Assembly (NCBI GenBank): GCA_963665845.2 | Contig: OY762492.1 | Coordinates: 352,001-416,000 of the forward strand | Length of the DNA stretch: 64,000 bases | Direction: 5' to 3' | Source: Candidatus Poribacteria bacterium | GTDB lineage: Bacteria; Poribacteria; WGA-4E; GCA-2687025 | Shown: positions 2,315 to 27,683 of the stretch, in pieces | Layout of the letters: each line of letters opens with the position of its first letter | Numbering within the stretch: the stretch's first letter is position 1 | The notes under the pieces: model-generated | What the model was told of the DNA's origin: nothing | Databases searched by the model: none | Seen by the model: only the letters and a program-made list of their open reading frames with translations | Program-made: the position numbers and the translations under genes

Positions 2315-5300
2315 ATGACGCTCCAAATGGAGCGGCCGTTCTTTTTTTGGGTTAAGGCGCTCCTGTTGATCCTTTGCCCGCTGTCCGCCGATGCGCAAAC
2401 GCTGCCTGCGCAGTGGCTCTCTGCGTCCCCCCTGTCGCTTCAAGGCGGACGCGCCGCGCATGCCGATATTGCCGCCGAGGGGGCGCATGCCGCGGTTGTG
2501 TGGAGCGGCGAAGCGTTCGGCGTCCAGACGCTGTTTTGGAGAGAAAGCCATGACCGAGGCGAGACATGGGAGCCGATAACGCTGCTGTTCCCGCCGGACG
2601 CTGAACGGAGCGAACCGAGCCTAGCGCACGACGGAACCGCGCTCTGGATCGCATGGACGCAGCGCGGCGCCGACGGCGAAACCGACATCTGGACGGCGCG
2701 CCAAACGCAGAACGGCTGGTCGACGCCGAAGCGCGCCTCCGCGGGCGGCTCTGCGGCGCGCCCGCGCCTTGCTGTCACGCGCTCAAGTCCGCGGCGCGTC
2801 GGGCTTGTGTATGAGGACAGGTCAAGCGCCTTCCCGCGCGCCATGCTTGTAGAATCGGACGACGGCGGCGCATGGTCGGCTCCGCGTCCGCTGGGAGACC
2901 CCGCCGCGCCGTCCGCTCAACCGGACATCGCCGTAACAAAAGGCGTCTTTCATCTGGTGTGGCAAGATTTTCAGACGCCTCAACCGCATCTGTATTACGC
3001 GGCGCGCGGCAGAGGATTCGCTTCCCCGATTCGCCGTCTGTCGCAAACGCCCGGCGTCCGTTCGCCGTTTATCGACGCCAGGGACGGCAAGCTGCTCGCC
3101 GTCTGGGAAAGGCGGTCGGACGCCGGCGGCTCCGACATCTACGCGGCTCTCGGCGATTCCAACACGCGCGAATGGACTCCCCCCTCCCCCTTGACAAACG
3201 CCGACTGGCAATCGGCGCGTCCAACAGGCGCCGTCTGGGGAGGAGGCGCTGTCGTCGTTTGGCAGGACGGCAGAAGCGGCAGGTTCGATCTTTACGCCGT
3301 CCAAATGCGGCAAGACGGATCTTGGGAAACCCCTTTCCCGCTTGTCGAATCGTCCGCTCCGTCGATGCATCCGAGAATGTCGGCGCCTGTCGATTTGCCA
3401 GGAGGACAGGCGCAGCTGGTATGGATCGAAAACGGCGCCGTTCTGCATTCCGCGCGCGACTCGATTTCGCCCGATCAACCCTCCCAGCCCGTCCATTTTG
3501 ATCTCTCCGCCAACGCGGGATGGGACGACGACGGAACGCTCCTGTTTCGATGGAAAGAAACGCCCGAAGCCCATGCCTATCAAGCCGACGTAACGATCAA
3601 CGGCGCCGAAACTCAAACCTTCATGCTGGACGCCCCAAACCTTACACTGACGCTGGCGGCGGGAACGGCGGCTTTAACCGTAACCGCCGTAGACGCTGTC
3701 GGAAACGCAAGCGAACCTTCCCTATCAAGCCTTCCTGTGCGCGTCGACTCGATCCCGCCGGCGCTGCGAATTCACCGCCCTGTCGACGGCGAACATCTTT
3801 TCACAGAATACGCCGCCCTGTTTTCATGCGTGGACGCGAATCTGATAGCATGCGTCGTTGAGATCGGCGACGGGGAGAACCCGTCCGAATGGACGCCGCT
3901 GGCAGGTCCGTTCATCGACTCGTTTGAGGAGCCGAAGTCGGCGCTGTTTCAAGTGAACAGGCGCGGCGGCGTCATAACGCTCCGCGTGCGCGCCGAAGAC
4001 GCCGCCGGCAACCTTTCCGAAGCGTTCGCGCGCGCCGTTGTGGATGTTGAGGAACCGCCGGCGGCGCAGATCGAAACCCACTCTCCGCTGTGGGAGGAGC
4101 CGACTTTAGACGCCGGCAGGCGGGATGTCGACTGGTCCGACGCGGCGCAGCGGCTCGCCTACATCTCGGATGAATCTGGAGCCGCCGATCTCTGGACGGC
4201 GCGGCTGGACGGCTCCGGCGCCTCTCCCGCGTCGGCGGACGCTTTTCTAGACGCCTCCCCGTCATGGCATCCGAACGGGAGATGGATCGCGTATGCGTCG
4301 CGGCGCGGCGGCGCGTGGCAGATCGCGGCGCGCGACTGGCGAACAGGCGAGGAACGCCCGCTCATCATGTCGGAATACGAGGACCGCGAACCGTCCTGGT
4401 CTCCCGACGGAAGCGCGCTGGCGTTTGTGAGCGCGCGAAACGGGCGCCATGAGATCTATCTGCTTGAAAACGCCGAGGAAACGCTGAACGGGGCGCCCCC
4501 GCTCATTCGGCGCGCCGCTCGAGGCGGCGTCCCCGGCAGACGCCCCAGTTGGCATCCGAACGGAACGAAGCTCATTTATGAAACGGTTCAAGGGGGCGCG
4601 CCGCATATCTGGACGCTAGACCTATACGAAGGCGCGCCCCGTCCGCTGATTCAGATTGCCGACTCCCGCGCCCCCGTTTACAGCCCTGACGGAAAGCGCG
4701 TCATGTTCACTCGATTGATCAACGGCTCCCCGTCGCTCTGGGTATGGAGCGCGTTGAGCGGCGACGTTCATCGACTCACCCCTGTAGGGCTAGAGGCGCA
4801 ATTCGGCGTCTGGACGGCGGGAGAGACAGCGGCGTTTGAAACGGTAGGCGGTTTGGCGTCCGCGCCGCTTATGGCGCCTACTCCTAAACTGGAAGCGCGC
4901 ATCGCGTCGCCGAGAAGCGGGTCAGTCGTCAGCGGACGGGTGGAGGTAACAGGCGCCGCGCGCGGCGAACGGTTCGATTCATACGATTTAACCTACGCGC
5001 CCGCCGACAACTCCGCCGCGCCGATCTCCATTACAGGCTCCGCCTCCTCGCCAGTGGAACGGGGCGGGTTCTTAGGTTTATGGAACGCGGAAGGTTTGTC
5101 GGGCGATTTCATTCTTCGGCTCATGGTGAACGGCGCGGAGGGTCAGCCCGCCGTATACGCCGAATCGCGCGTGTCGATTTTGGCGCCGTCCGCCGAGCTG
5201 GACATCCAGGAGCCGGGAAACGGCATGCAAACGTTGGAAAAGGAGATACGCCTGCGCGGGAGGGCGCGCGGTCTGCTGTCGGTCAACGGCGAACGCTTGC

Positions 5301-12900: not shown

Positions 12901-13012
12901 TGCGATTCCATGCCGCCGTTGCGCCGCGTCCTTCAGAATATGTTAGCCGTTTCAAGCGTTATATGGCATCATATTTGGCGGTCTGGCAATGAATTGCGAA
13001 AAGGAGACGCAT

Positions 13013-14467
13013 ATGAGCGCGCCGCGCGTTCGATTCGCCCCCTCGCCGACAGGCTCGCTTCACATCGGCAGCGCCCGAACGGCGCTCTTCAACTGGCTCT
13101 ACGCGAGGCGGCACGGCGGAACCTTCATCTTGCGCATTGACGACACTGACGCCGAACGCTCCACCGAAGAGTCAACCCGCTCCATCTTCGAGGCGATGGA
13201 ATGGCTGGGGCTGGACTGGGACGAGGGGCCGTACGCCCAATCGGACCGGCTGAAGCAGCATCAAGAACGGGCGCGGGAACTGATCGAGAACGGCGCGGCG
13301 TATTATTGCTACTGCACTAAAGAGGAGCTTGCCGCCAAACGCGAAGCCGCCCGAAAAGAAGGACGCCCCTACCGCTACGACGGAACATGCCGCAGCCTGT
13401 CCGACAGCGAACGCAAGCGGTTAGACGGCGAAGGGCGTTCAAAGGTCGCGCGGCTGAAAATTGAGCAGGACGAGAGCATCCTGACGCCAGATCTGATCCT
13501 CGGCGATGTGGTCTTCGACTCCTCAACGCTGGACGATTTCATCTTCATGAAGCCGAACTTCACGCCGCTTTACAATTTCAGCTCCGCCGTTGACGACGCC
13601 GATATGGAGATCACGCATGTGATCCGCGGGCAGGATCATCTCCCGAACACGCCGAAGCAGATACTCATCAGCAAGGCGCTTGGGATGGAGCCGCCGAAGT
13701 TTGCGCATCTTCCGATGGTGCATAACGCGCGCGGACAGAAGCTGAGCAAGCGGGACGGCGCTGTCGGGACGCTGGAGTTTCGGGAGATGGGCTTCTTGCC
13801 TGAAGCGCTGGTGAATTATCTGGCGCGCCTTGCATGGTCGGCGGAGGGCGAACAGGAGATCTTTACGACCGAGGAGCTGAAGGCGAAATTCGACCTGGAC
13901 AGGGTCGGCAAAAGCCCCTCCCGCTTCGATATGAAGAAGCTGACATGGTTGAACGGGCAGTATATGAACGAAATGCCGCTTGCTGAAAAGACGGACGGAT
14001 CGGCTCTTTTCTTGAAAAAGGCGGGTTATGAGACTGAAAACGTCCCGCGCGAACGCCTAGAGCGGATCGTGGAAGCGGTCGGCGACCGGCTCCACACCTG
14101 GCCGGACATCGTTACATACGGCTCCTATTTTTTTGAAGAGGACGGCGCGTACGAGTTTGATCCTGCGGCGGTCAAAAAATGGTTTCGTTCCGAGGCGGAG
14201 CTGGAAACAGTTCGCGCCGCCTCGCCTCTCATAGAGGGCATTGACCCGTTCGAAGTGGATGAGATCGACAAGCGAATGCGCGCCTGGGCGGAGGAGCGCG
14301 GCGAAAAGCTGATAAGGGTTCTACAGCCGCTGCGCGTCGCCGTCACAGGCAAGCAGGTTGGACCGAGCCTGTTTGAAACGCTGGAGATCTTAGGCAAAGA
14401 GTCGGTCTTGAACCGCTTGAAGCGCGCGTCAAAAGAGCTGCCGGACATGTACGCGCAAAAGGGCTGA
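13013..14467 (+). CDS. gltX: Glutamate--tRNA ligase
   Basis: RFAPSPTG, HIGS (HIGH), LRIDDTD, KLSKR (KMSKS); AAGGAG RBS. Confidence 0.95.
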   Translation: MSAPRVRFAPSPTGSLHIGSARTALFNWLYARRHGGTFILRIDDTDAERSTEESTRSIFEAMEWLGLDWDEGPYAQSDRLKQHQERARELIENGAAYYCYCTKEELAAKREAARKEGRPYRYDGTCRSLSDSERKRLDGEGRSKVARLKIEQDESILTPDLILGDVVFDSSTLDDFIFMKPNFTPLYNFSSAVDDADMEITHVIRGQDHLPNTPKQILISKALGMEPPKFAHLPMVHNARGQKLSKRDGAVGTLEFREMGFLPEALVNYLARLAWSAEGEQEIFTTEELKAKFDLDRVGKSPSRFDMKKLTWLNGQYMNEMPLAEKTDGSALFLKKAGYETENVPRERLERIVEAVGDRLHTWPDIVTYGSYFFEEDGAYEFDPAAVKKWFRSEAELETVRAASPLIEGIDPFEVDEIDKRMRAWAEERGEKLIRVLQPLRVAVTGKQVGPSLFETLEILGKESVLNRLKRASKELPDMYAQKG

Positions 14468-14479
14468 CGCTTCCGTCAA

Positions 14480-15057
14480 CCCTATCGCAGTATCGTATCT
14501 AACTTACGGGGCGCCGAGGGGCGGCTTTCCGTTCTGCCGCCGCCTCGACCCGCGCCGTAATCACTCGGCGAAACCGGTTGCCCGGCCGGGCTGTTTCAAA
14601 GCGTCATTGAAACGCCTTGCCGTTGCCGCTGCGCCTCCGCTCGGTCCCAAGCGCAAAGCCTTGGAAGCGGGCATATGAGGCGCCGCCGCGTTGGCAGCTT
14701 GTTTCGGACCTCTCCGAAACGACCCTGTGAAGAGGGCCCTCAACCGCTGACGCTCCGCCGGGGCGCGTCAACTGGCTCGCTTGACGGGGCGAACCGTTCG
14801 CGTTCGGTTCGCCGACCGTCCCAGATCAATCGGGCGGCTTGTCCGCGTCCGACGCAACAGGTCGTTGGCTGCATCTGCCTCGGAGTTCCGAAGCTCCCGT
14901 TCGGGTTGGTTCTGAGCCGCTCCGTCGCGCGTAGGAACGTTCAGCTCCGCGCCTCGCGAGGTTTCTTTCCGCCTTGGCGGTTGCCCCGCTGACCTGCCCG
15001 CCGCGTCCGACTGGATCATCGTCGAGCGTCAATAATGGATACGCAGGGCGTATAGGG
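14480..15057 (+). ncRNA. Candidate large (~580 nt) structured non-coding RNA, family unknown
   Basis: Ends pair with each other; second long-range helix; about 10 local hairpins; G-U wobbles favour the + strand; no credible ORF. Confidence 0.6.
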
Positions 15058-15160
15058 AGGGTTACAGGTTTTCGCGTTTTTTTTCTGCCGCATCCCAAAA
15101 AACGCTGTAAGCGGAAATCCGCGTATCTGCAGAAGGCGGACGTCGTCTGCGGCGCCTCTG

Positions 15161-15184
15161 GATTCCCGCTTGCGCGGGAATGAC
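15161..15184. repeat. REP-like palindrome GATTCCCGCTTGCGCGGGAATGAC
   Basis: One of about 13 copies in the window. Confidence 0.9.
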
Positions 15185-15214
15185 GACACGGTTGGCGCGG
15201 TCAGTCTCTGTCGG

Positions 15215-15243
15215 TTGAGAGCTCAACGCGCGCCATGTAAAAT
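15215..15243 (+). promoter_or_regulatory. Sigma70-type promoter of the six-paralog array
   Basis: TTGAGA-17 nt-TAAAAT. Confidence 0.6.
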
Positions 15244-15265
15244 GCGTTGAACAGGCATATCGATC

Positions 15266-17218
15266 ATGGAGGCGGAAATGAAAATGCGGCGCGTCTTGTG
15301 CGCGGCGTTCATGTTCTTTGCGGCGCGCGAATTGTGCGTCATGGCGTTTATGAACGAATACGGCGATATAGCGGTACTGTCCGGCGTTAAAATGTATCCG
15401 ACAATCTGGAGCAATCGCGGATATGCGATGCGGCGATTCAAGATTGAGAACAGGTCGCTGGATCAAACCTACCGCGTCACGCTGAGCATCCCGGCTGACA
15501 GGTTTGTTGGAAGAGCGTCCCCCGCTCCCCGACTTCATACCGTTTCTAAGACGATTGATGTTGAGCCTTCCACTATGGAATATGTGACGGTGTTTCAACC
15601 CGCTGTTTCTATGTTTGGATACGACTGCGCTGTGACGATTGACGGACAGCGGCAGGAGCAGCCCGTCGAAATGCTGACAGATCTGTATCGGTTTCACGCA
15701 GCTCCGATTTCCGCCCTGACAACATCCGCGACAACGCAGTTCGTCAGCTCGCCAGATCCGTACGAGCCGAAAATCTTCATGACCAATATCAACGCCGCCG
15801 CCTATCAAGCGACGATGAGCAATAAAGCGAGCGAGTACCTTTCCCGCTCAACAGCCGGCGGCAAAAAGTTGGCGCATCCAGTTTTCATCAGCGCCAACAG
15901 TTTTGAGAATCGTTTCAACTTCATGCTGTCTCGCAAAGCAGGAAAATTCACCGCCGGGAACAGCTCCAAAATCAGTTGGCTGCATTATTCCCCGCTTGAA
16001 GGCGTCGTCTATGACGATAGTTATGTGAATGAAATGACAGACCAAGCGCGCCTCGCTCTGTGGCGGTATGTGGAATGCGGCGGAACGCTCACTTTCATTG
16101 TGATTCGGGATGGGGTGGAGGTGGGAGATGGGACATCAAGGTATAGCAGTAAGAAGCTGCTCAGCGAATGGGCGTCTTTAGACTCTCGACTGAAGAATCG
16201 ACGCGTCTATAAGGATACGTATGAGCGGTTCGATGTTGGCTTTGGCGTGTTTCACCTGGTCGGACGGGACAGCTTCGGTTCCGTCGATATTGCCGATACG
16301 GGCGTCGCCGTACCGGAAACATGGTATGAAGCGAGAGCCGCTTGGCATCGGCAGCATACGGCATACGGCGCAAATCAGGTTCTGCCGATGACGGAGCCGG
16401 TCGATTCGCGCGGATCGTTTCAGCGTTTCTTTTTTCTAGCGTTTTTCCTTGCCGTTCTGATCGGACCCGCGCATCTTTATGTTTTAAAACGTATGAAGCG
16501 GCGCGGGTGGGTTTATTGGACGACGCCCGCGCTTGCGGCGCTGGCATGCGGCGCGTTTGTGTTGTATGCGTCTGTCGCGTTCGGTTGGAACCCGCAGACC
16601 CGCGTCGTAAGCTTGACGCATCTAGACCAGCAAACAGGGCGGGCGGCGACCATCGGCTGGGCGGCGTACTATTCCCCCATGACGAATGCCGCCGAGCTTC
16701 ATTTTGATGAAAATACGGAGCTGACGCCTCTAGTGTACGGCGATCAGCTGGTCGGCTCCATCGACTGGACAGACGGACAGCGGCTGACAGGCGGATGGCT
16801 TCCCGCCCGCGTCCCGCGGCACTTCAAGCTGCGCAAAAACGAAGACCGCCCTGAACGCATCGACATCAAAAGAGAGGGCGGCGCCTTAAAGGTCGTCAAC
16901 CGCCTCGGCGCGCGCGTCAAACATTTCTGGTATGCTGACCATGACGGCACACTGTATCGGGCGTCCGGCATCGGAAACGGCGCCGAAGCCGCTTTAACCA
17001 AAACAACAGGCGCGCCGATAGGATCGAAGAAGCTGCGCGATGTGTACGCCTCTCAAGACTGGGTTGACGAGATTGAGGCGGTCAAGGCGAAGCCCGCGGC
17101 GTATCTTCAGCCTGGGCAGTATTTTGCGGAGCTGAAAGAGAACGTGTTTGTGGAGAAGGCGCTGAAGGGCGCGAAGGCCAAGCCGTCCATATCGCTTGTG
17201 TTAGGTACCTTGGAGTAG
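15266..17218 (+). CDS. Array paralog 1: secreted N-domain, central two-TM hairpin, conserved C-domain; function unknown
   Basis: Signal peptide; LWRYVECGG; IGPAHLYVLKR..W.YWTTP; DWTDGQRL..GW..RVP.HFKLRK. Confidence 0.85.
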   Translation: MEAEMKMRRVLCAAFMFFAARELCVMAFMNEYGDIAVLSGVKMYPTIWSNRGYAMRRFKIENRSLDQTYRVTLSIPADRFVGRASPAPRLHTVSKTIDVEPSTMEYVTVFQPAVSMFGYDCAVTIDGQRQEQPVEMLTDLYRFHAAPISALTTSATTQFVSSPDPYEPKIFMTNINAAAYQATMSNKASEYLSRSTAGGKKLAHPVFISANSFENRFNFMLSRKAGKFTAGNSSKISWLHYSPLEGVVYDDSYVNEMTDQARLALWRYVECGGTLTFIVIRDGVEVGDGTSRYSSKKLLSEWASLDSRLKNRRVYKDTYERFDVGFGVFHLVGRDSFGSVDIADTGVAVPETWYEARAAWHRQHTAYGANQVLPMTEPVDSRGSFQRFFFLAFFLAVLIGPAHLYVLKRMKRRGWVYWTTPALAALACGAFVLYASVAFGWNPQTRVVSLTHLDQQTGRAATIGWAAYYSPMTNAAELHFDENTELTPLVYGDQLVGSIDWTDGQRLTGGWLPARVPRHFKLRKNEDRPERIDIKREGGALKVVNRLGARVKHFWYADHDGTLYRASGIGNGAEAALTKTTGAPIGSKKLRDVYASQDWVDEIEAVKAKPAAYLQPGQYFAELKENVFVEKALKGAKAKPSISLVLGTLE

Positions 17219-17223
17219 GTGAA

Positions 17224-19158
17224 ATGAAGCATGCGCGCGTTGCGTTGGCGTCGCTTTTTGCGTTGATTGCGGCGGATGTATTTGCCTCCCCGACCGTTTC
17301 GATGATCGGCGATATTGGGATCGTGACAAACTCGAGATCTTACGGTCGAGACGCGTTGAGCGGCTATGCGATGCATCGCATTGAGCTCTGGAACAACTCG
17401 TCCACCAAAACGCATCGGATTCATCTGCGCATTCCAGCAGAGCCGCGCGGTTTGCCCGGCGTCAACGCCTATCTTCACAGCGTCTCTAAGACGTTTGTCG
17501 TTCCGCCATCCTCTCGTATGGACGCGCTGATTCATCAACCGCCGCTGCCGATGCGCCGAGAGCCGACGATCGCTGTCACTGTCAACGGAAAGCTGGAAGG
17601 GAACGTTCGTCTTCGTATGCCGCATTCACATGCAGCCGCCGCGCCGAGACTGTTCTACCCCTCCGCCGCGCCGACAGCGAACTACATCTCCTTCGTCTCG
17701 TATGCGTTTGAACCGCGCGTCTTGATAAACGTATGGAGGAACTACGACGCATATGTCGTACTGGATCAAGCGGTTATCTCGTCCGCTTCTGCCGGCCGCG
17801 GAAGTTATGCGGCGCCTCCTAAGCCTGTCGAAGGCAGCCATTATGACGGGTTAAGAGCCGCCTATTATTATGTCCCGCCGGATGCAACGAGCGGTTTTTT
17901 CAAAGGCAACGGTTCCAAACCGGTCTGGCTCAATTACACAACATTTGAAGGCGTTGTCTATAGCGAAGAATACGCGCAGCATCTGACGCCGGCGGGCAGG
18001 AACGCGCTTTGGCGGTATGTGGATTGCGGAGGTTCGCTCGCCTATTTCGGCAGCGGAAAAATGCCGGCATGGTGGGCGGAGCTGGACCCGCGGCTGGCGG
18101 ACAAGGATCTCCAACATGGCGCGTTTGAGAAGTATGAGATCGGGTTCGGATCGCTCTATTTGGTCGGCGAGGTAGATGCGCCCGCGGCGTCAGATACTTC
18201 TACGGAAACGCATGAACTGCCGGACAGCGCCATCGACATCGCAAAGTCATGGTATGAGTCCCAACCGACGACAACGCGCCGATACACAGCGCAGGGAGCG
18301 GCAGATATTCTTCCTTTAGGGAAACGGTTCAACTTTACCGCGTCTCTACAACGCTTTTTTCTGATGGGGCTGCTTCTGGTCGTTCTGATGGGTCCGGCGC
18401 AGCTGTTCGTATTGAAACGCATCAAACGGCGCGAATGGGTTTATTGGACGACGCCCGCGCTCGCGGCCCTGGCATGCGGGGCGTTTGTGTTGTATGCGTC
18501 CATCGCGTTCGGCTGGAACCCGCAGACCCGCGTCGTCAGCTTGACGCATCTAGACCAGCAAACAGGGCGGGCGGCGACCATCGGCTGGGCGGCGTACTAT
18601 TCCCCCATGACGAATGCCGCCGAGCTTCATTTTGATGAAAATACGGAGCTGACGCCTCTAGTGTACGGCGATCAGCTGGTCGGCTCCATCGACTGGACAG
18701 ACGGGCAGCGGCTGACAGGCGGGTGGCTCCCCGCCCGCGTCCCGCGGCACTTCAAGCTGCGCAAAAACGAAGACCGCCCCGAACGCATCGACATCAAAAG
18801 AGAGAACGGGAAGATAAAGGTTGTCAACCGCCTCGGCGCGCGCGTCAAAAAATTCTGGTATGCTGACCATGATGGCAAACTGTATCGGGCGTCCGGCATC
18901 GGAAACGGCGCCGAAGCCGTTTTAACCGAACAAAAACCCGCGCCGATCGGCTTTAGGAAGCTGCGCCGCGATGTGTACGTCTCTCAAAACTGGGTGGACG
19001 AGATTGAGGCGGTCAAGGCATGGCCCTCGGTGTATCTTCAGCCTGGATGGTATTATGCGGAGCTGAAAGAGAATGTGTTTGTGGAGAAGGCGCTGAAAGG
19101 CGCGAAGGCGAAGCGGTCCACATGTCTTGCGCTGGGCGCATTGGAGGAATCGAAATGA
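17224..19158 (+). CDS. Array paralog 2
   Basis: Same architecture; post-TM block nearly identical to paralog 1. Confidence 0.85.
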   Translation: MKHARVALASLFALIAADVFASPTVSMIGDIGIVTNSRSYGRDALSGYAMHRIELWNNSSTKTHRIHLRIPAEPRGLPGVNAYLHSVSKTFVVPPSSRMDALIHQPPLPMRREPTIAVTVNGKLEGNVRLRMPHSHAAAAPRLFYPSAAPTANYISFVSYAFEPRVLINVWRNYDAYVVLDQAVISSASAGRGSYAAPPKPVEGSHYDGLRAAYYYVPPDATSGFFKGNGSKPVWLNYTTFEGVVYSEEYAQHLTPAGRNALWRYVDCGGSLAYFGSGKMPAWWAELDPRLADKDLQHGAFEKYEIGFGSLYLVGEVDAPAASDTSTETHELPDSAIDIAKSWYESQPTTTRRYTAQGAADILPLGKRFNFTASLQRFFLMGLLLVVLMGPAQLFVLKRIKRREWVYWTTPALAALACGAFVLYASIAFGWNPQTRVVSLTHLDQQTGRAATIGWAAYYSPMTNAAELHFDENTELTPLVYGDQLVGSIDWTDGQRLTGGWLPARVPRHFKLRKNEDRPERIDIKRENGKIKVVNRLGARVKKFWYADHDGKLYRASGIGNGAEAVLTEQKPAPIGFRKLRRDVYVSQNWVDEIEAVKAWPSVYLQPGWYYAELKENVFVEKALKGAKAKRSTCLALGALEESK

Positions 19159-20975
19159 GATTGGCGCGTGTTTTATGCGCGGCGGCCCTGTTCGGAGGCG
19201 CGCTGAACGGATCCGCGTTTTATCAGGATTACGGCGACATCTCGATCGAACTGATGAGCTCTATTAGCGGAGCCAGCGGATTTAAGACCCATGGCTACGC
19301 GGCTCTCCGCATTAAAGCAACCAATAGATCTCCCGACAAGGCGCATCGGGTCGAGATACGCTTCCCGAACGAAGGCGGCAGATCCTTCTGGGGTCCAGGG
19401 CAACTTAAAAGCTTTTCCAAGACGATTGATGTCGCTCCCGACTCAACCGCAGAAGCCTACTTTTATCAACCGTCGATACTCCTAGACGGCGACGCTCATG
19501 AAGCGGTTGTGTATATTGACGGAGAAAAGCAGGCTCAGAATATTCATGCGTTTGGCATATCCTCGCATGGCGCTGTCGGTACGTTCAGCAGTTCATCCGG
19601 CGGCTCATGGGTCAATCCTCGAGAAGAGCCGACCGTGTCGTTTGGCGCGATTCGAGAGAGCAGTATTCCCGGATCTTCCAAAGTCAACTCATGGGATCGC
19701 CGTTCATTTGATTCATTTGATTCAACCTGGCTCGCCTATTCTGGTTACGACGGCATTGTTCTGGCTCTTTCCGAAGCCAAAACGTTGAGCGCCGAGGAAC
19801 GCGCCGCGCTCTGGGAGTATGTGAAAGCCGGCGGGTCGCTCGCCGTCATGGGAATAGGGCAATTGCCCGATGACTGGGCGCGGTTGGACAGCCGTTTGGC
19901 AAATCGAGAACTGGTCATGGATGTTTCTGAGCGGTATGAAGTCGGGTTTGGAATTCTTTTTTTGGCGGGACCGCCGTTCTTTCCGACATCGTCCCGCCCC
20001 GCCGTTCATACCGCGATTTACGATTCATGGTTTGAAACGCAAAAGCCCTGGCTGCGAATCTACACCGCCGCCGGCGCCAACACAGCCCTTCCTGTCTCGA
20101 AGCCGGTCGACACACGAGCAAGTTTCCGCCGCATGTTTTTTCTGTCGCTTCTTTTTGCGGCGATTATCGGACCACTAAACATCGCCGTTCTGCGGCGAAA
20201 GAAACAGATGATGCGGCTTTACTGGACGACGCCCGCTATTTCCTTGACCGCCTGTTTGCTGTTCGTTCTTTATTTCGCCGTCTTTGAAGGTCCGGTCAAG
20301 TATATGCGCGTCGCCAGCTTGACGATGATTGACCAGGAGGCGCGCTTGGCGACGACGCTCGGCTGGCTCGGTTTCTATTCGCCGTTTGCGGAGCCTGAAG
20401 GGCTTCTCTTTGACGAAGTAACGGAGCTGACGCTGCAGCAGGAGGGGTTGCCCAGATTTGGCCCGATGGCGGTAGGTACGGCGGCAGGCATGGACAGGAC
20501 AGGTTCCGTTGACTGGACGGACGGACAGCGGTGGTCGGGCGGATGGATTCAGCCCCGCGTCCCGCTGCATTTCAAACTGCGCAAGAGTGAATCCCGCCCC
20601 GAACGCATTGACCTCAAAAGAGAGGGCGGCGATATAAAGGTCATCAACCGCCTCGGCGCCCGCGTCAAAGCGTTCTGGTACGCCGACGATGAAGGCGGAG
20701 TTTATCGAGCGGACGACATTCCGAAAGGCGCCGAAGCCGTTTTAACCAAAACAACAGGCGCGCCGATCGGCTCAAAGAAGCTGCGCGATGTGTACGCCCG
20801 CTGGGACTGGGTCGCCGAGATTGAAAAATTGAAGGCGTCGCCCGCGGCGTATCTTCAACATGGCTGGTATTTCGCCGAGCTGGAAGAGAACGTTTTTGTG
20901 GAGAAGGCGATGAAGGGCGCGGAGATGCTGCCGTCCACATGCCTTGTGTTGGGCGCATTGGAGGAATCGAAATGA
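19155..20975 (+). CDS. Array paralog 3
   Basis: GGAGG RBS, ATGA overlap with paralog 2 stop; same motifs. Confidence 0.85.
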   Translation: MRLARVLCAAALFGGALNGSAFYQDYGDISIELMSSISGASGFKTHGYAALRIKATNRSPDKAHRVEIRFPNEGGRSFWGPGQLKSFSKTIDVAPDSTAEAYFYQPSILLDGDAHEAVVYIDGEKQAQNIHAFGISSHGAVGTFSSSSGGSWVNPREEPTVSFGAIRESSIPGSSKVNSWDRRSFDSFDSTWLAYSGYDGIVLALSEAKTLSAEERAALWEYVKAGGSLAVMGIGQLPDDWARLDSRLANRELVMDVSERYEVGFGILFLAGPPFFPTSSRPAVHTAIYDSWFETQKPWLRIYTAAGANTALPVSKPVDTRASFRRMFFLSLLFAAIIGPLNIAVLRRKKQMMRLYWTTPAISLTACLLFVLYFAVFEGPVKYMRVASLTMIDQEARLATTLGWLGFYSPFAEPEGLLFDEVTELTLQQEGLPRFGPMAVGTAAGMDRTGSVDWTDGQRWSGGWIQPRVPLHFKLRKSESRPERIDLKREGGDIKVINRLGARVKAFWYADDEGGVYRADDIPKGAEAVLTKTTGAPIGSKKLRDVYARWDWVAEIEKLKASPAAYLQHGWYFAELEENVFVEKAMKGAEMLPSTCLVLGALEESK

Positions 20976-22792
20976 GATTGGCGCGCGTCTTGTGCGCGGC
21001 GGCGCTGCTCGGATGCGCGCTGAACGGATCCGCGTTTTATCAGGATTACGGCGACATCTCGATCGAACTGATGAGCTCTATTAGCGGAGCCAGCGGATTT
21101 AAGACCCATGGCTACGCGGCTCTCCGCATTAAAGCAACCAATAGATCTCCCGACAAGGCGCATCGGGTCGAGATACGCTTCCCGAACGAAGGCGGCAGAT
21201 CCTTCTGGGGTCCAGGGCAACTTAAAAGCTTTTCCAAGACGATTGATGTCGCTCCCGACTCAACCGCAGAAGCCTACTTTTATCAACCGTCGATACTCCT
21301 AGACGGCGACGCTCATGAAGCGGTTGTGTATATTGACGGAGAAAAGCAGGCTCAGAATATTCATGCGTTTGGCATATCCTCGCATGGCGCTGTCGGTACG
21401 TTCAGCAGTTCATCCGGCGGCTCATGGGTCAATCCTCGAGAAGAGCCGACCGTGTCGTTTGGCGCGATTCGAGAGAGCAGTATTCCCGGATCTTCCAAAG
21501 TCAACTCATGGGATCGCCGTTTATTTGATTCATTTGATTCAACCTGGCTCGCCTATTCTGGTTACGACGGCATTGTTCTGGCTCTTTCCGAAGCCAAAAC
21601 GTTGAGCGCCGAGGAACGCGCCGCGCTCTGGGAGTATGTGAAAGCCGGCGGATCGCTCGCCGTGATGGGAATAGGGCGGCTGTCCGATGATTGGGCGCGG
21701 CTGGACAGCCGTTTGACGAATCGAGAACTGGTCGGCGACACTTCTGAACAGTATGAAATCGGATTTGGACTGCTTTTTCTGTCGGGTCCGCCGTACTTTC
21801 CGACCGCGGCCCGCCCGACCATTCATACAGCGATTTACGATTCATGGCTTGAAACGCAAGGAACCTGGCTGCGAATCTACACCGCGTCCGGCGCCAACAC
21901 AGTTTTCCCTGTCGCCGAGCCGTTCGACACCCTGGCAAGTTTCCGCCGCATGTTTTTTCTGGCGCTTCTTTTTGCGGCGATTATCGGACCACTAAACATC
22001 GCCGTTCTGCGGCGAAAGAAACAGATGATGCGGCTTTACTGGACGACGCCCGCTATTTCCTTGACCGCCTGTTTGCTGTTCGTTCTTTATTTCGCCGTCT
22101 TTGAAGGTCCGGTCAAGTATATGCGCGTCGCCAGCTTGACGATGATTGACCAGGAGGCGCGCTTGGCGACGACGCTCGGCTGGCTCGGTTTCTATTCGCC
22201 GTTTGCGGAGCCTGAAGGGCTTCTCTTTGACGAAACGACCGAGCTGACGCTGCAGCAGGAGGGGCTGCGCAGATTCAGCCCGATGGCGATAGGCGCATCG
22301 ACAGGAATGGAAAGGGGAGGTTCCGTCGACTGGACGGAGGGGCAGCGGTGGTCGGGCGGATGGATTCAGCCCCGCGTCCCGCTGCATTTCAAACTGCGCA
22401 AGAGCGAATCCCGCCCCGAACGCATTGACCTCAAAAAAGAGGGCGGCGATATAAAGGTTGTCAACCGCCTCGGCGCTCGCGTCAAGACATTCTGGTACGC
22501 CGACGATGAAGGCGGAGTTTATCGAGCGGACGACATTCCGAAAGGCGCCGAAGCCGTTTTAACCAAAACAACAGGCGCGCCGATCGGGTTGAAAAAGCTG
22601 CGCGATGTGTACGCGCGCTGGGACTGGGTCGCCGAGATTGAGAGGGTGAAGGCGAAGCCCGCGGCGTATCTTCAACCTGGATGGTATTATGCGGAGCTGG
22701 AAGAGAACGTGTTTGTGGAGAAGGCGCTGAAGGGCGCGGAGATGATGCCGTCCACGTCGCTGGTCATCGGGCAAATGGAGGAGAAGAAATGA
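20972..22792 (+). CDS. Array paralog 4
   Basis: ATGA overlap; 5' ~700 bp nearly identical to paralog 3. Confidence 0.85.
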   Translation: MRLARVLCAAALLGCALNGSAFYQDYGDISIELMSSISGASGFKTHGYAALRIKATNRSPDKAHRVEIRFPNEGGRSFWGPGQLKSFSKTIDVAPDSTAEAYFYQPSILLDGDAHEAVVYIDGEKQAQNIHAFGISSHGAVGTFSSSSGGSWVNPREEPTVSFGAIRESSIPGSSKVNSWDRRLFDSFDSTWLAYSGYDGIVLALSEAKTLSAEERAALWEYVKAGGSLAVMGIGRLSDDWARLDSRLTNRELVGDTSEQYEIGFGLLFLSGPPYFPTAARPTIHTAIYDSWLETQGTWLRIYTASGANTVFPVAEPFDTLASFRRMFFLALLFAAIIGPLNIAVLRRKKQMMRLYWTTPAISLTACLLFVLYFAVFEGPVKYMRVASLTMIDQEARLATTLGWLGFYSPFAEPEGLLFDETTELTLQQEGLRRFSPMAIGASTGMERGGSVDWTEGQRWSGGWIQPRVPLHFKLRKSESRPERIDLKKEGGDIKVVNRLGARVKTFWYADDEGGVYRADDIPKGAEAVLTKTTGAPIGLKKLRDVYARWDWVAEIERVKAKPAAYLQPGWYYAELEENVFVEKALKGAEMMPSTSLVIGQMEEKK

Positions 22793-24606
22793 GGGCGCGT
22801 TGTTTCCTTACCGCGCTTCTTTGCGCGAGCTTCTTCTGGAGCGTACCCTCAATCGCGCAAGTTTACGGCGATATCGAGATTGAATGGGAGCCGATCTACT
22901 CTACCCGCAGGAGACCCGGCATCCACGGCTACGGTATGCATCGTTTCAAAGTTGTCAATCGTTCGGCGTCCAAAACCCGACGCGTCGCGATTCAGGTACC
23001 TGCTGAAAACATGCGGCGCGGCATGCTCTCCATCCGCAGCGTCTCCAGTACCGCCGCGGTGCCTCCCCAGACAACCATGAGAATAAAGCTCTTCCAGCCG
23101 CCTTATCGAATGGGCGGCGGCGCGCGCGTGTCTATCGATGGCAGCCTGCAAGCTACGCCCATCGCTCAATCTTCCAGGAGCGCTATCGAACACGGCATAT
23201 CGCGGTATTATCGGGAGTCTGAAAATTGGGCGTTGGTCTCTCGAAATATCAAATGGCTGGAGCCGCGCGTATTGCTGAACGAGAACCTTGCCATTTCCAC
23301 TACGATGGCAGGCGGTCCGAAAACAGCGTTTGTCAACGGAGTCGTGGACGAATCGAACTGGCTGGCATACACCCCGTACCATGGCGTCGTCATGACTATA
23401 GAGCAGGCTAAGAAATTGAACCGCGATCAGCTGACCGCCCTGCGCAGATATGTGGAATGCGGCGGCTCTCTTGCGGTGGAAGGGATATGGGAGGAGGACG
23501 CGCGCCTGCCCGATAGTTGGGCTGCATTGGACAGCAGATTCGCAAACAGAGCCATTGACGGCTTTGAGAAGTTTGAGATCGGCTTTGGCGTTGTTTTCTT
23601 GACAAGAAACTTCTGGTACATCATCGCCGGAAGAAGGGATGGAAAACCGTACTTTGCCACCGTCATTCCAACCTCATGGCATGACGGCGGCAAAGCGTGG
23701 TGGAGGACGCCCACCATACAGGGCGCCAATGCAATTTTCCCGATGACAACGGAGTTCCGCTACGAGGATGCGATGCGGCGCATGTTCTATTTCATGCTTC
23801 TCGCCGCTTTGTTGATGGGACCCTTGCATATTTATCTCCTCAATCGAAAGAAACGTCTTAAATGGCTCTATTGGACAACCCCGCTGCTTTCGGCGTTCGT
23901 ATGCCTGGGCGTCGTTCTCTTCGCGGCGATGGAACTAGGGCGGAATAAACAGATGCGCGTCGCGAGCGTTACCTTTTTAGACCAGCGCTTCCAGAGCGCC
24001 GCCACTATCGGCTGGCTCGGCTTCTATTCGCCCATGACGACCATCCATGAGCTTCGCTTCGAGAGCAGTACCGAGTTGACTCCTCTTCTCCTGGACGGAA
24101 GCGATCTGTTGATCCAAGTAGGCGCCTCGGTCGGTACGATCGACTGGACAGACGGGCAGCGGCTCGCCGGCGGATGGGTACAAGCGGGCGTCCCCCTCCA
24201 CTTCAAACTGCGCAAAAACGAAGACCGCCCCGAACGCATCGACATCAAAAGAGAGGGCGGCGATATAAAGGTTGTCAACCGGCTCGGCGCGCGCGTCAAA
24301 GCTTTCTGGTACGCCGACGCTGAAGGCGGGGTTTATCAAGCGGCTGACATTCCGAAAGGCGCCGAAGCCGTTTTAACGAAAACAACAGGCGTACAGATCG
24401 GCTCAAAGAAGCTGCGCAGCGTGTACGCCTCTCCAAACTGGGTTGATGAGATTGAAGCGGTCAAGGCGAAGCCCGCGGCGTATCTTCAACCTGGGCAGTA
24501 TTTCGCCGAGCTGGAAGAGAATGTGTTTGTGGAGAAGGCGCTGAAGGGCGCGGAGATGCTGCCGTCCACATGCCTTGTGTTGGGCGCATTGGAGGGATCG
24601 AAATGA
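22789..24606 (+). CDS. Array paralog 5
   Basis: ATGA overlap; divergent N-half, conserved C-domain. Confidence 0.85.
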   Translation: MRARCFLTALLCASFFWSVPSIAQVYGDIEIEWEPIYSTRRRPGIHGYGMHRFKVVNRSASKTRRVAIQVPAENMRRGMLSIRSVSSTAAVPPQTTMRIKLFQPPYRMGGGARVSIDGSLQATPIAQSSRSAIEHGISRYYRESENWALVSRNIKWLEPRVLLNENLAISTTMAGGPKTAFVNGVVDESNWLAYTPYHGVVMTIEQAKKLNRDQLTALRRYVECGGSLAVEGIWEEDARLPDSWAALDSRFANRAIDGFEKFEIGFGVVFLTRNFWYIIAGRRDGKPYFATVIPTSWHDGGKAWWRTPTIQGANAIFPMTTEFRYEDAMRRMFYFMLLAALLMGPLHIYLLNRKKRLKWLYWTTPLLSAFVCLGVVLFAAMELGRNKQMRVASVTFLDQRFQSAATIGWLGFYSPMTTIHELRFESSTELTPLLLDGSDLLIQVGASVGTIDWTDGQRLAGGWVQAGVPLHFKLRKNEDRPERIDIKREGGDIKVVNRLGARVKAFWYADAEGGVYQAADIPKGAEAVLTKTTGVQIGSKKLRSVYASPNWVDEIEAVKAKPAAYLQPGQYFAELEENVFVEKALKGAEMLPSTCLVLGALEGSK

Positions 24607-26396
24607 GATTGGCGCGCGTCTTGTGCGCGGCGGCGCTGCTCGGATGCGCGCTGAACGGATCCGCGTTTTATCAGGATTACGGCGACATCTCAATCGAATT
24701 GAACAGTTCTATTAGCGGAGCCGGCGGCTTTACGAGTCGCGGCTACGCCGCTGTCCGCATTACAGCGGCGAACAGCTCTCCCGACAAGGCGCATCGGGTC
24801 GAGATACGCTTCCCGCTCGAAGGAGGATTTTCCATTTCGGGGCCGGGGAGGCTCAAAAGTTTCTCCAAGACGATACAGATCGCTCCCGACTCAACCGCGG
24901 AAGTCTACATCTATCAACCGCGCATATTTCCAGACTTCGAATCCGCCGATGAAGGGGTTGTGTATATTGACGGAGAGAAGCAAGCGCAGAATGTGCGCGC
25001 GATGTTCTCTGGGGGCGGCGGTTGGCTCGCCAGTTCGGGCGGCGGCTCATGGACCGATTATCATATGGATCCGAGCGTGTCGTTTGGCGCGATTGATGTG
25101 AGCAGTTTTCCGGTAACTACTAAAATCAGCGCATGGACTCGCCGTTCATTCGATTCAACCTGGCTCGCTTATTCAGGTTATGACGGCATGGTACTGTCTC
25201 TTTCCGAAGCCAATACGTTGGGCGCCGATGAACGCGCCGCCCTCTGGGAGTATGTGAAAACCGGCGGGTCGCTCGCCGTGATGGGAATAGGGCGGCTGTC
25301 CGATGACTGGGCGCGGATGGACAGCCGTTTGACGAATCGAGAACTGGTCGGCGACGCTTCTGAACAGTATGAAATCGGGTTTGGACTGCTTTTTTTGTCG
25401 GGTCCGGCGTTCTTTCCGACCTCGTCCCGCCCCTCGATTCATACCGCAATTTACGATTCATGGCTTGAAACGCAAAAACCCTGGCTGCGAATCTACACCG
25501 CCGCCGGCGCAAACACAGCCCTTCCTGTCTCGGAGCCGGTCGACACCAGGGCAAGTTTCCGCCGCATGTTTTTCCTGTCGCTTCTGTTTGCGGCGATTAT
25601 CGGACCCTTGAACATCGCCCTTCTGCGGCGAAAGAAACAGATGACGCGGCTTTACTGGACGACGCCCGCCATTTCCTTGACCGCCTGTTTGCTGTTCGTT
25701 CTTTATTTCGCCGTTTTTGAAGGACCAAGGAAGTATATGCGCGTCTCCAGCTTAACGCTGATTGACCAGGAGTCGCGTTCGGCGGCGACGCTCGGCTGGA
25801 TCGGTTTCTATTCGCCGTTTGCGGAGCCTGAAGGGCTTCTCTTTGACGAAGTAACGGAGCTGACGCTGCAGCAGAAGGGGATGGACACATTCAGACCGAG
25901 AGCGATAGGCGCAGCGGCGGGCATGGACAGGGCAGGTTCCGTCGACTGGACGGAGGGGCAGCGGTGGTCGGGCGGATGGATTCAGCCCCGCGTCCCGCTG
26001 CATTTTAAACTGCGCAAGAGCGAATCCCGCCCCGAACGCATCGACATCAAAAAAGAGGACGGCGCCTTAAAGGTTGTCAACCGCCTCGGCGCGCGCGTCA
26101 AGACGTTCTGGTACGCCGACGCTGAAGGCGGGGTTTATCAAGCGGCTGACATCCCGAAAGGCGCCGAAGCCGCTTTAACCAAAACAACAGGCGCGCCCAT
26201 CGGCTCGAAGAAGCTGCGCGATGTGTACGTCTCCCAAGACTGGGTTGCCGAGATCGAGGCGGCGAGGAAATCTCCAGCGGCGTATCTTCAACCTGGATGG
26301 TATTTTGCCGAGCTGGAAGAGAACGTTTTTGTGGAGAAGGCGATGAGAGGCGCGGAGATGATGCCGTCCGCGTCGCTTGTCATCGGGAAGTTTTAA
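24603..26396 (+). CDS. Array paralog 6
   Basis: ATGA overlap; mosaic of paralog 3-like and 4-like blocks. Confidence 0.85.
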   Translation: MRLARVLCAAALLGCALNGSAFYQDYGDISIELNSSISGAGGFTSRGYAAVRITAANSSPDKAHRVEIRFPLEGGFSISGPGRLKSFSKTIQIAPDSTAEVYIYQPRIFPDFESADEGVVYIDGEKQAQNVRAMFSGGGGWLASSGGGSWTDYHMDPSVSFGAIDVSSFPVTTKISAWTRRSFDSTWLAYSGYDGMVLSLSEANTLGADERAALWEYVKTGGSLAVMGIGRLSDDWARMDSRLTNRELVGDASEQYEIGFGLLFLSGPAFFPTSSRPSIHTAIYDSWLETQKPWLRIYTAAGANTALPVSEPVDTRASFRRMFFLSLLFAAIIGPLNIALLRRKKQMTRLYWTTPAISLTACLLFVLYFAVFEGPRKYMRVSSLTLIDQESRSAATLGWIGFYSPFAEPEGLLFDEVTELTLQQKGMDTFRPRAIGAAAGMDRAGSVDWTEGQRWSGGWIQPRVPLHFKLRKSESRPERIDIKKEDGALKVVNRLGARVKTFWYADAEGGVYQAADIPKGAEAALTKTTGAPIGSKKLRDVYVSQDWVAEIEAARKSPAAYLQPGWYFAELEENVFVEKAMRGAEMMPSASLVIGKF

Positions 26397-26453
26397 CGCC
26401 CGCCCGTCAGCGCTACAATAGGTCTTCAGCCTAAAACGGAGCAGCGATGCGGC

Positions 26454-27560: not shown

Positions 27561-27683
27561 CCTGGCGACCTGCAAACCGCCATTCTCCGGAAGCGGGAAT
27601 GACGAATCGCCGACGCGGACGCGCATGTCCGCGCGGAGGAGGGGATGACAGACGACGTTCGCGCGCTTTTGCGTTCAGCGGGC

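What the first reader, a model, noticed from the sequence alone, without database searches (positions are those of the whole stretch)
14480..15057. Candidate undescribed ~580-nt ornate structured RNA downstream of gltX
Seen: this intergenic stretch folds by eye into a closed, nested structure. Terminal stem: CCCTAT-CGC (14480-88) and CGTATC (14494-99) pair with GATACG (15038-43) and GCG-T-ATAGGG (15048-57). A separate long hairpin spans 14504-14560. A long-range helix pairs 14564-14591 with 14996-15026 (CTCGGCGA/TCGTCGAG, CCGGTTG/CGACTGG, CGG.CGGGC/GCCCGCCG). It encloses successive hairpins: GTTTCAA/TTGAAAC (14593-14613), GCGCCTC/GAGGCGC with inner CCGCT and CCAAG stems (14631-14682), TGTTTCGGA/TCCGAAACG (14700-21), CCCT/AGGG, TGACGC/GCGTCA (14748-70), GACGG.GGCGAACCG/CGGTTCGCC.CCGTC (14783-14820), GGAGTT/AGCTCC (14882-97), GCGCG/CGCGC, GCCTC/GAGGT and CCGC-CTTG-GCGG. 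Several imperfect pairs are G-U only on the + strand, which points to an RNA of that polarity. I see no RNase P, tmRNA, SRP or group I/II intron signatures. Inference: a large ornate ncRNA, comparable in size to OLE/ROOL but without motifs I recognise from them.
Basis: partly seen in the sequence, partly recalled or inferred. Interest (0 to 1): 0.85.

Follow-up and report, generated by a model that had tools for sequence, protein, structure and literature searches.

The report
Hyper-abundant orphan RNA of Poribacteria
A single-copy non-coding stretch beside gltX in a sponge-symbiont (Poribacteria-type) genome gives a discrete RNA of about 456 bases that is far more abundant than its neighbouring genes in sponge metatranscriptomes and matches no catalogued RNA family; it likely acts as a stable protein-binding regulator, but its strand, fold and job are untested.

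Summary
The interval is non-coding, single-copy and without an Rfam match. The new result is expression. Contigs of four sponge metatranscriptomes from three studies cover only 14562-15017. Summed word depth reaches about 165,000, against 0-6 over gltX and 0 over the downstream ORF. Three contigs from two studies start at exactly 14562, so a discrete RNA of about 456 nt exists. That is shorter than the proposed 578 nt and lacks the outer stem and the 14504-14560 hairpin.

The RNA was found only in the window's genome and its one congener: 2 of 176 phylum genomes by BLAST, and 2 of 151 plus 2 of 8 by covariance model. It diverges at 10.5% (core 14695-14865: 4.1%), against 18-25% at third codon positions of six nearby genes.

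There is no compensatory double substitution. Substitutions break fewer minus-strand pairs than random placement predicts (6 against 13.3, P about 0.002). On the plus strand they do not (13 against 16.7).

Function is unknown. My best guess is a stable protein-sequestering RNA, possibly a 6S/Ms1/CoRP analogue. The finding is real and new as a family, but the ornate fold is unproven.

The parts
14562..15017 (-). Body of the abundant non-coding RNA, about 456 nt. The strand is inferred, not measured. The left end at 14562 is sharp. The right end is at 15017 or a few bases beyond.
   Evidence: a 456-nt contig of X22 lies on 14565-15017 with its first 3 bases unaligned. Two X10 contigs start at 14562, and a 371-nt X21 contig lies on 14640-15003. 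Depth reaches 164,614 (X11), against 0-5.8 over gltX and 0 over 15264-16000. Strand.
14695..14865 (-). Most conserved core, holding four local hairpins (14699-14722, 14724-14736, 14746-14772, 14783-14820) and invariant linkers.
   Evidence: 6 substitutions and one 2-nt indel in 171 nt; divergence 0.041. The changes lie in loops (14710, 14761, 14797, TC insertion) or a bulge (14814), or turn a C.A (plus) / U.G (minus) pair into C-G (14771). One (14861) is unassigned.
14616..14692 (-). Fast-evolving segment, where the predicted compound hairpin 14631-14683 is not maintained in the congener.
   Evidence: 80% identity in 14600-14699; most of the broken pairs lie here, at 14636-14640 / 14671-14678.
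14504..14560 (.). Very stable GC-rich hairpin between the gltX stop codon and the RNA's sharp end. It is not part of the abundant RNA. It is possibly a U-less terminator shared by the two convergent genes (inferred).
   Evidence: hairpin in MFE and centroid; the congener differs only in the loop; depth 0 in bin 14424-14507.
14480..14499 (.). Left arm of the flanking inverted repeat (CCCTAT..CGTATC), outside the mature RNA.
   Evidence: The 6-nt blocks are conserved in the congener, with one change (C14488G) that breaks a proposed pair. It is not repeated elsewhere in the genome.
15038..15057 (.). Right arm of the flanking inverted repeat (GATACG..ATAGGG), outside the mature RNA.
   Evidence: The right flank 15021-15121 diverges at 0.188, about the neutral rate.

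Best explanation
Window 14562-15017 is a single-copy gene for a discrete, very abundant non-coding RNA of about 456 nt that matches no Rfam family. It is probably read from the minus strand, and it would act as a stable protein-sequestering RNA, most likely on RNA polymerase in the manner of 6S, Ms1 or CoRP RNA.

Shown: non-coding; single copy; under purifying selection; a discrete RNA with a sharp end at 14562; depth thousands of times that of the flanking genes.

Inferred: minus polarity, convergent with gltX (about 70%); a chain of roughly ten local hairpins rather than a proven closed 'ornate' fold; maturation from a longer precursor, since the flanking hairpin and inverted-repeat arms are conserved but absent from the RNA.

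Guessed: the binding partner. I put the RNA polymerase reading at about 0.25-0.3. That the RNA gene is real I put at about 0.9.
For: Expression: four RNA runs from three studies. Contigs end at 14562 (X10 twice; X22 after 3 clipped bases) and at 15017 (X22). Summed word depth reaches 10,363 (X10) and 164,614 (X11), against 0-5.8 over gltX and 0 over 15264-16000.

Non-coding: every ORF of 40 aa or more differs in extent between the two genomes. 1-2-nt indels lie at 14592, 14671-72, 14802 and 14971. Substitutions show no 3-periodicity, 18/19/17.

Selection: divergence is 0.105 for the RNA and 0.041 for the core. Third codon positions of six nearby genes are at 0.176-0.25, and the right flank is at 0.188.

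Uniqueness: 1 hit in the own genome by BLAST and by nhmmer. There is no plasmid, phage or viral-contig match.

Strand and structure: the congener's 43 substitutions break 6 pairs of the window-only minus-strand centroid, against 13.3 expected (P 0.002). With the MFE it is 11 against 16.7 (P 0.018). On the plus strand it is 13 against 16.7 (P 0.11) and 19 against 19.6 (P 0.47). The z-score is -3.63 on minus and -1.91 on plus. The minus strand is purine-rich, like the sense strands of this genome's RNase P RNA, tmRNA and gltX.

Partner: RNase P RNA and tmRNA lie elsewhere. No 6S was found in this genome, in the other 7 genomes of the order, or beside the 5-FTHF cyclo-ligase gene. CoRP is a 516-nt, genus-restricted, abundant RNA polymerase-binding RNA, and its authors propose that each species has one such RNA (PMC11077062, abstract and sections 27 and 33 read).
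Against: Strand was not measured, because contigs carry no strand. No convincing sigma-70-type promoter or intrinsic terminator lies at either end on either strand.

There is no compensatory double substitution in either strand's consensus. Depletion of substitutions in MFE-paired positions is not significant in any third of the RNA (best P 0.085). With stricter pair sets the minus-strand signal weakens (P 0.07 and 0.15). Only two full sequences exist, and they are 89% alike.

The Rfam 6S model rings in only 5 of 14 control genomes, so failing to find 6S is weak evidence. Nothing ties the RNA to RNA polymerase: no rod-with-bubble shape is evident and no binding data exist. Other Poribacteria genera show no homologue. 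If this were a core regulator, they would need unrecognisably diverged counterparts.

Confidence: 0.35

Rival explanations
1. It is a plus-strand RNA co-transcribed with gltX and cut out of the 3' UTR. It would accumulate only because it is far more stable than the mRNA, and could act as a 3'UTR-derived regulatory RNA.
For: No own promoter was found upstream of 14562. The 94 nt between the gltX stop codon and 14561 are conserved (divergence 0.074). The hairpin 14504-14560 could protect the gltX 3' end after cleavage at 14561/14562. A few wobble positions fit only the plus strand, namely T14700.G14721 and T14641.G14670.
Against: The plus-strand fold of the RNA span is barely better than shuffles (z -1.91). 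Plus-strand pairs are broken at the chance rate. Composition flips to pyrimidine-rich on the plus strand right after gltX, unlike gltX, RNase P RNA and tmRNA. The depth ratio to gltX of more than 1,000 would have to come from stability alone.
Confidence: 0.25
2. It is a large 'ornate' structural RNA in the sense of OLE, ROOL or GOLLD. That would be a scaffold of a ribonucleoprotein or a self-assembling particle, not a sequestering regulator.
For: It has the size (about 456 nt), many GC-rich hairpins, and high abundance. Several loops or segments hold GC palindromes kept in the congener: CGCG in the 14797-14804 loop, CGCGCG in 14924-14933, and GCCCGGCCGGGC at 14581-14592.
Against: No Rfam model of these families matches. 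There is no covariation. The distribution is one genus, whereas the named families are broad. GC palindromes are expected by chance at 65% G+C and were not tested against shuffles.
Confidence: 0.1
3. It is a base-pairing regulator or RNA sponge that titrates other transcripts or small RNAs.
For: Invariant single-stranded linkers of 36-50 nt (14712-14761, 14818-14862, 14913-14955, 14983-15020) are conserved beyond what the hairpins need.
Against: No second genomic site shares significant similarity or complementarity with the element. No repeated loop motif of the CsrB type is visible (by eye on the folds). At 456 nt and this abundance it is atypical for base-pairing sRNAs.
Confidence: 0.12
4. 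It is a stable by-product without a function of its own, for example a nuclease-resistant remnant of a spacer or a decayed mobile-element remnant bounded by inverted repeats.
For: It is flanked by imperfect 20-nt inverted repeats. It is absent downstream of gltX in four other genera, where a glyoxalase, aminotransferase or methylase gene follows. So it looks like an insertion in this genus.
Against: It is single-copy, and the arms occur nowhere else. No target-site duplication is visible. Divergence is half the third-position rate overall and one fifth in the core. That indicates selection on the sequence.
Confidence: 0.1

Closest known systems
CoRP RNA of Corynebacterium (RNA polymerase-binding RNA, 516 nt; PMC11077062, sections 27 and 33 read)
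   Same: Both are large (516 against about 456 nt). Both are intergenic and very abundant, restricted to one genus at sequence level, and found in a lineage where neither 6S nor Ms1 is detectable. CoRP is cleaved into 318- and 198-nt pieces. Here, depth is much higher over 14592-14760 than over 14928-15011. That is only a hint, because contig depth cannot rank parts.
   Different: RNA polymerase binding is untested here. The phyla are unrelated. CoRP lies between tRNA genes, whereas this RNA lies between gltX and a paralogous gene array.
6S RNA (Rfam RF00013) and Ms1 RNA
   Same: They are abundant, stable, non-essential regulators that pile up in slow-growing cells. No other 6S candidate was found in this genome or its order.
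   Different: 6S is about 185 nt and is a rod with a central bubble. This RNA is about 456 nt and predicted to be multi-hairpin. There is no match to the 6S model.
OLE, ROOL, GOLLD, HEARO and raiA large structured RNAs (Rfam families; names recalled)
   Same: They are hundreds of nucleotides long, non-coding and hairpin-rich, and some are very abundant in metatranscriptomes.
   Different: No model matches. Those families are defined by strong covariation over many genomes, while this RNA has two genomes and no covariation. Their hosts and gene contexts are different.
3' maturation of E. coli RNase P RNA by removal of its terminator hairpin (recalled, not read here)
   Same: A stable RNA whose mature end lies just before a strong hairpin that is absent from the mature molecule. 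Here that is 14562 against the hairpin 14504-14560.
   Different: This is only an analogy for processing. This genome's own RNase P RNA is elsewhere.

Membership tests
Any Rfam 15 family (4227 models, including RNase P, tmRNA, SRP, 6S, OLE, ROOL, GOLLD, HEARO, raiA, group I/II introns) | Covariance-model score at or above the family's gathering threshold | tested here: not met
   0 matches in the 64-kb window; 7 matches with E up to 10 in 14300-15300, the best at 20.1 bits against a cut-off of 42.
6S RNA | Length of about 180-200 nt, with a rod-like fold and a large central bubble | tested here: not met
   The RNA spans about 456 nt. Predicted folds are multi-branched chains of hairpins.
6S RNA | Binds the sigma-70 holoenzyme and templates pRNA | not testable with these tools
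   This needs RIP-seq, gradient or in vitro binding.
Ms1 / CoRP-type RNA polymerase-binding RNAs | Co-purifies with RNA polymerase core or holoenzyme | not testable with these tools
   These RNAs are defined by RIP-seq and pull-down in PMC11077062. No such data exist for this uncultured organism.
Ms1 / CoRP-type RNA polymerase-binding RNAs | The single most abundant non-housekeeping RNA, 300-520 nt, in a lineage without 6S | tested here: inconclusive
   Abundance and size fit. 6S was not found in 8 of 8 genomes of the order, but the model rings in only 5 of 14 controls. Whether this is the most abundant such RNA of the organism was not measured.
Structured ('ornate') non-coding RNA as a class | Base pairs supported by covariation or by avoidance of disruptive changes | tested here: inconclusive
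   There are 0 compensatory pairs. Minus-strand pairs broken: 6 against 13.3 expected (P 0.002), but P 0.07-0.15 with stricter pair sets. Plus strand: not different from chance.
MITE or other dispersed mobile element | Several copies per genome, with terminal inverted repeats and a target-site duplication | tested here: not met
   One copy by BLAST and by nhmmer, and the arms are unique. No duplication flanks the arms. The site is the same in the congener.
Protein-coding gene or pseudogene | A conserved open frame with codon-position bias of substitutions | tested here: not met
   Frame-breaking indels are present, substitutions fall 18/19/17 by frame, and ORFs are not shared. There are no Pfam hits for 3 ORFs inside it.

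The most novel reading that the evidence does not exclude
Poribacteria of this genus carry their own class of hyper-abundant RNA of about 456 nt. It takes the place of 6S RNA as the cell's RNA polymerase-sequestering regulator. That would make it a fourth type after 6S, Ms1 and CoRP, found in an uncultured sponge-symbiont phylum and readable directly from sponge metatranscriptomes.
Probability: 0.2. Interest if true: 0.8.

Novelty: new variant of a known kind. Interest (0 to 1): 0.62.

Why it matters
Poribacteria are uncultured, dominant sponge symbionts, and I found no paper describing their non-coding RNAs. Searches gave nothing relevant. Supplements of the large RNA-motif surveys were not examined. 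An RNA that outnumbers neighbouring mRNAs by thousands in host tissue is likely central to how these slow-growing cells run. If it is the lineage's polymerase-binding RNA, it supports the proposal that every bacterium has one such RNA in lineage-specific form. It also gives a marker transcript for this symbiont in sponge RNA data.

Tried and rejected
- **DNA-run control and more variants.** It remains unshown that DNA coverage runs evenly through 14562 and 15017.
- **More homologues.** A metagenome-contig scan anchored on GltX returned 80 loci, the best at 65% identity, and none held the element. BLAST over 41 and 176 genomes gave only short matches of 23-56 nt apart from the congener. The best of these (L003) is a 43-nt intergenic patch after an unrelated gene. 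Covariance model R1 of the core found nothing new in 151 plus 8 genomes, nor with filters off beside gltX of other genera.
- **Promoters and terminators.** The scan found only the downstream ORF's promoter-like site (15215-15243) and two terminator-like sites at the chance rate. Comparison with the upstream regions of rnpB and ssrA gave no shared box. Folds of both flanks are unremarkable except for the 14504-14560 hairpin.
- **Strand from wobble counts in local hairpins.** The count was 9 against 9, so uninformative.
- **Paired against unpaired substitutions.** The test on MFE structures of three segments was not significant.
- **6S by synteny.** There is no room and no hit next to the 5-FTHF cyclo-ligase gene.
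- **Depth gradient.** Depth falls along the RNA in X10 and X11 (150,000 down to 1,000). Contig depth cannot rank parts of a gene, so I treat this only as a hint of a more stable 14562-14780 part.
- **Unlaid runs.** The 16 of 24 listed runs with a share under 0.2 that I did not lay are not used as evidence of habitat or expression.
- **IS200/IS605 mini-element idea.** This came from an earlier finding. I rejected it on copy number and on the lack of any other similarity in the genome.

Full report
**Setting.** The interval lies between gltX (12989-14467, plus strand; Pfam tRNA-synt_1c and Anticodon_2) and a 650-aa ORF without Pfam match (15266-17218, plus). That ORF has its own promoter-like site at 15215-15243. 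Record titles of the nearest relatives of the GltX protein name Candidatus Poribacteria MAGs. The closest (93% protein identity) is the congener G001. The order holds only 8 genomes in the collection searched.

**Is the observation there?** Yes, as sequence. The 578-nt interval folds better than dinucleotide shuffles on both strands: z -4.13 on plus, z -5.23 on minus. No Rfam family reaches its threshold anywhere in the window, and the best sub-threshold hit in 14300-15300 has E 0.26.

The element is single-copy in its 3.98-Mb genome by BLAST and by nhmmer, and its flanking arms occur nowhere else. It has no match in the plasmid, phage or viral-contig collections. It is therefore not a MITE or a known RNA.

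It is not coding either:
- No ORF of 40 aa or more keeps its extent between the two genomes.
- There are 1-2-nt indels at 14592, 14671-72, 14802 and 14971.
- Substitutions fall 18/19/17 over the three frames.

**Expression, the main new fact.** A search of sequencing runs listed 24 runs from 14 studies that hold the stretch or part of it. Many are labelled sponge metagenome, and 6 are RNA libraries. I laid four RNA runs from three studies on 13500-16000.
- Contigs cover 14562-15017, plus a short dispersed repeat at 15154-15186, and almost nothing else.
- Summed word depth over the element reaches 10,363 in X10 and 164,614 in X11. It is 107 in X21 and 15 in X22.
- gltX has depth 0 in three runs and 0-5.8 in X11. 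The downstream ORF has 0 in all four runs.
- X22 holds one 456-nt contig that lies on 14565-15017, with its first three bases unaligned. Two X10 contigs begin at 14562. X21 holds a 371-nt contig on 14640-15003.

So three contigs of two studies and two sequence lineages start at the same base, 14562. The right end is at 15017 or a little beyond. The flanks serve as the silent control against DNA carry-over.

The abundant molecule is therefore about 456 nt, not 578 nt.

**Distribution and selection.** Apart from the window's own genome, the element was found only in the congener G001, at the same site and 89-90% identical.
- BLAST of the core over 176 genomes of the phylum gave otherwise only 23-56-nt chance-level matches.
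- A covariance model of the best conserved 171 nt found 2 of 151 and 2 of 8 genomes, in each case the window's genome and G001.
- It found nothing beside gltX in four other genera, with filters off. There a glyoxalase, aminotransferase or methylase gene follows gltX.
- The metagenome contig collection held no close relative of this gltX, the best being 65%.

Against G001, the RNA diverges at 0.105 and its core 14695-14865 at 0.041. Third codon positions of six nearby genes diverge at 0.176-0.25, and the right flank 15021-15121 at 0.188. The sequence is thus under clear purifying selection. The 94 nt between the gltX stop codon and 14561 are conserved too (0.074).

**Structure.** The evidence is mixed, and I report both sides.

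Against:
- RNAalifold finds no pair with changes on both sides, on either strand.
- With structures predicted from the window alone, G001's changes are not depleted in plus-strand paired positions (18 observed against 20.2 expected). They break 12 of the 16 pairs they touch.
- Tests per third of the RNA are not significant; the best is P 0.085.
- The fast-evolving stretch 14616-14692 does not keep its predicted compound hairpin.

For:
- In the core, 5 of 7 events lie in hairpin loops or a bulge, and one turns a mismatch or wobble into C-G.
- Counting broken pairs against 3,000-5,000 random placements of the same substitution types gives a minus-strand signal. The centroid loses 6 pairs against 13.3 expected (P 0.002), and the MFE loses 11 against 16.7 (P 0.018).
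- That signal weakens with stricter pair sets (P 0.07 and 0.15).
- The plus strand never departs from chance (P 0.11-0.51).

I conclude that a set of local hairpins is probably conserved. The closed 'ornate' architecture is unproven, and it shifts with the chosen ends.

**Polarity.** Contigs carry no strand. Four indirect lines favour minus:
- the substitution test above;
- z -3.63 on minus against -1.91 on plus for 14562-15020;
- the minus strand is purine-rich (GC skew +0.06, AT skew +0.21), like the sense strands of this genome's RNase P RNA, tmRNA and gltX, and the skew flips right after gltX;
- single changes that are G.U on minus but C.A on plus in the clearest hairpins: 14595, 14607, 14771, 14892, and 14679 in X22.

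Against this, two wobbles fit only the plus strand, and the overall wobble count is 9 against 9. No good promoter or terminator is seen on either strand. I put minus at about 0.7.

**What it is not, and what it may be.** RNase P RNA (263 bits) and tmRNA (190 bits) lie elsewhere in the genome. The Rfam 6S model finds nothing in this genome or in the other 7 genomes of the order. There is also nothing beside the 5-FTHF cyclo-ligase gene, where 6S often sits. That model rings in only 5 of 14 control genomes, so this is weak.

The closest analogue in print that I read is CoRP RNA (PMC11077062: abstract, sections 27 and 33). CoRP is 516 nt, intergenic, genus-restricted and very abundant. It binds RNA polymerase core and holoenzyme, and it is cleaved into two pieces. 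It occurs in a lineage lacking 6S and Ms1. Its authors propose that each species has one abundant polymerase-binding RNA that may escape bioinformatic detection.

The present RNA fits that profile in size, abundance, narrow distribution and the lack of a 6S candidate. Nothing here tests binding. I therefore commit to 'stable protein-sequestering RNA, most likely on RNA polymerase', but at only about 0.25-0.3 for the partner. That a discrete, abundant, selected non-coding RNA gene exists I hold at about 0.9.

The conserved hairpin and inverted-repeat arms outside the mature RNA suggest maturation from a longer precursor. This is inferred.

**Literature.** Four full-text searches found no description of a Poribacteria non-coding RNA or of this RNA: Poribacteria with ncRNA terms; sponge symbiont metatranscriptome noncoding RNA; 'Poribacteria-1'. 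I recall a 'Poribacteria-1' motif from the 2017 survey of RNA motifs. I did not check that it is among the 4227 families held; if it is, searches show that it does not match here. Supplements of such surveys were not seen.

**Verdict.** This is a real and interesting orphan RNA.

Noticed in passing
window 15154-15186: A palindromic hairpin repeat of about 32 nt (core ATTCCC..8 nt..GGGAAT). A 20-nt core pattern with up to 2 mismatches hits 427 forward and 462 reverse places in the genome (the pattern is near-palindromic, so the two counts overlap). In RNA contigs it appears with many different flanks. It is missing at this site in the congener G001. It matches the dRS3/NTS-like repeats noted earlier for this genome.
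   Followed up: partly
window 15266 to about 27560: The unknown 650-aa and 644-aa ORFs downstream belong to a tandem array of paralogous genes. BLAST against the congener gives many cross-matches of 76-84% among 16320-27562. The two ORFs tested have no Pfam family. They evolve fast: 30-40% divergence at all codon positions for the first ORF.
   Followed up: partly
window 15059-15120: A conserved A/T-rich inverted repeat (GCGTTTTTT ... AAAAAACGC, with a 14-nt loop) lies in the otherwise fast-changing spacer. The congener's one stem change (G to A) is a wobble only on the minus strand. Its role is unknown; a promoter or terminator element of the RNA gene is possible.
   Followed up: no
window 15122-15200: This part of the spacer, including the hairpin repeat, is absent from the congener. 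It looks like a recent repeat insertion between the RNA gene and the downstream promoter.
   Followed up: no
L008 2993-3499 and L009 2985-3986 (other Poribacteria genera): In two other genera a convergent glyoxalase-family gene follows gltX directly where this genus has the RNA gene. The RNA locus is therefore a genus-level novelty at this site.
   Followed up: partly
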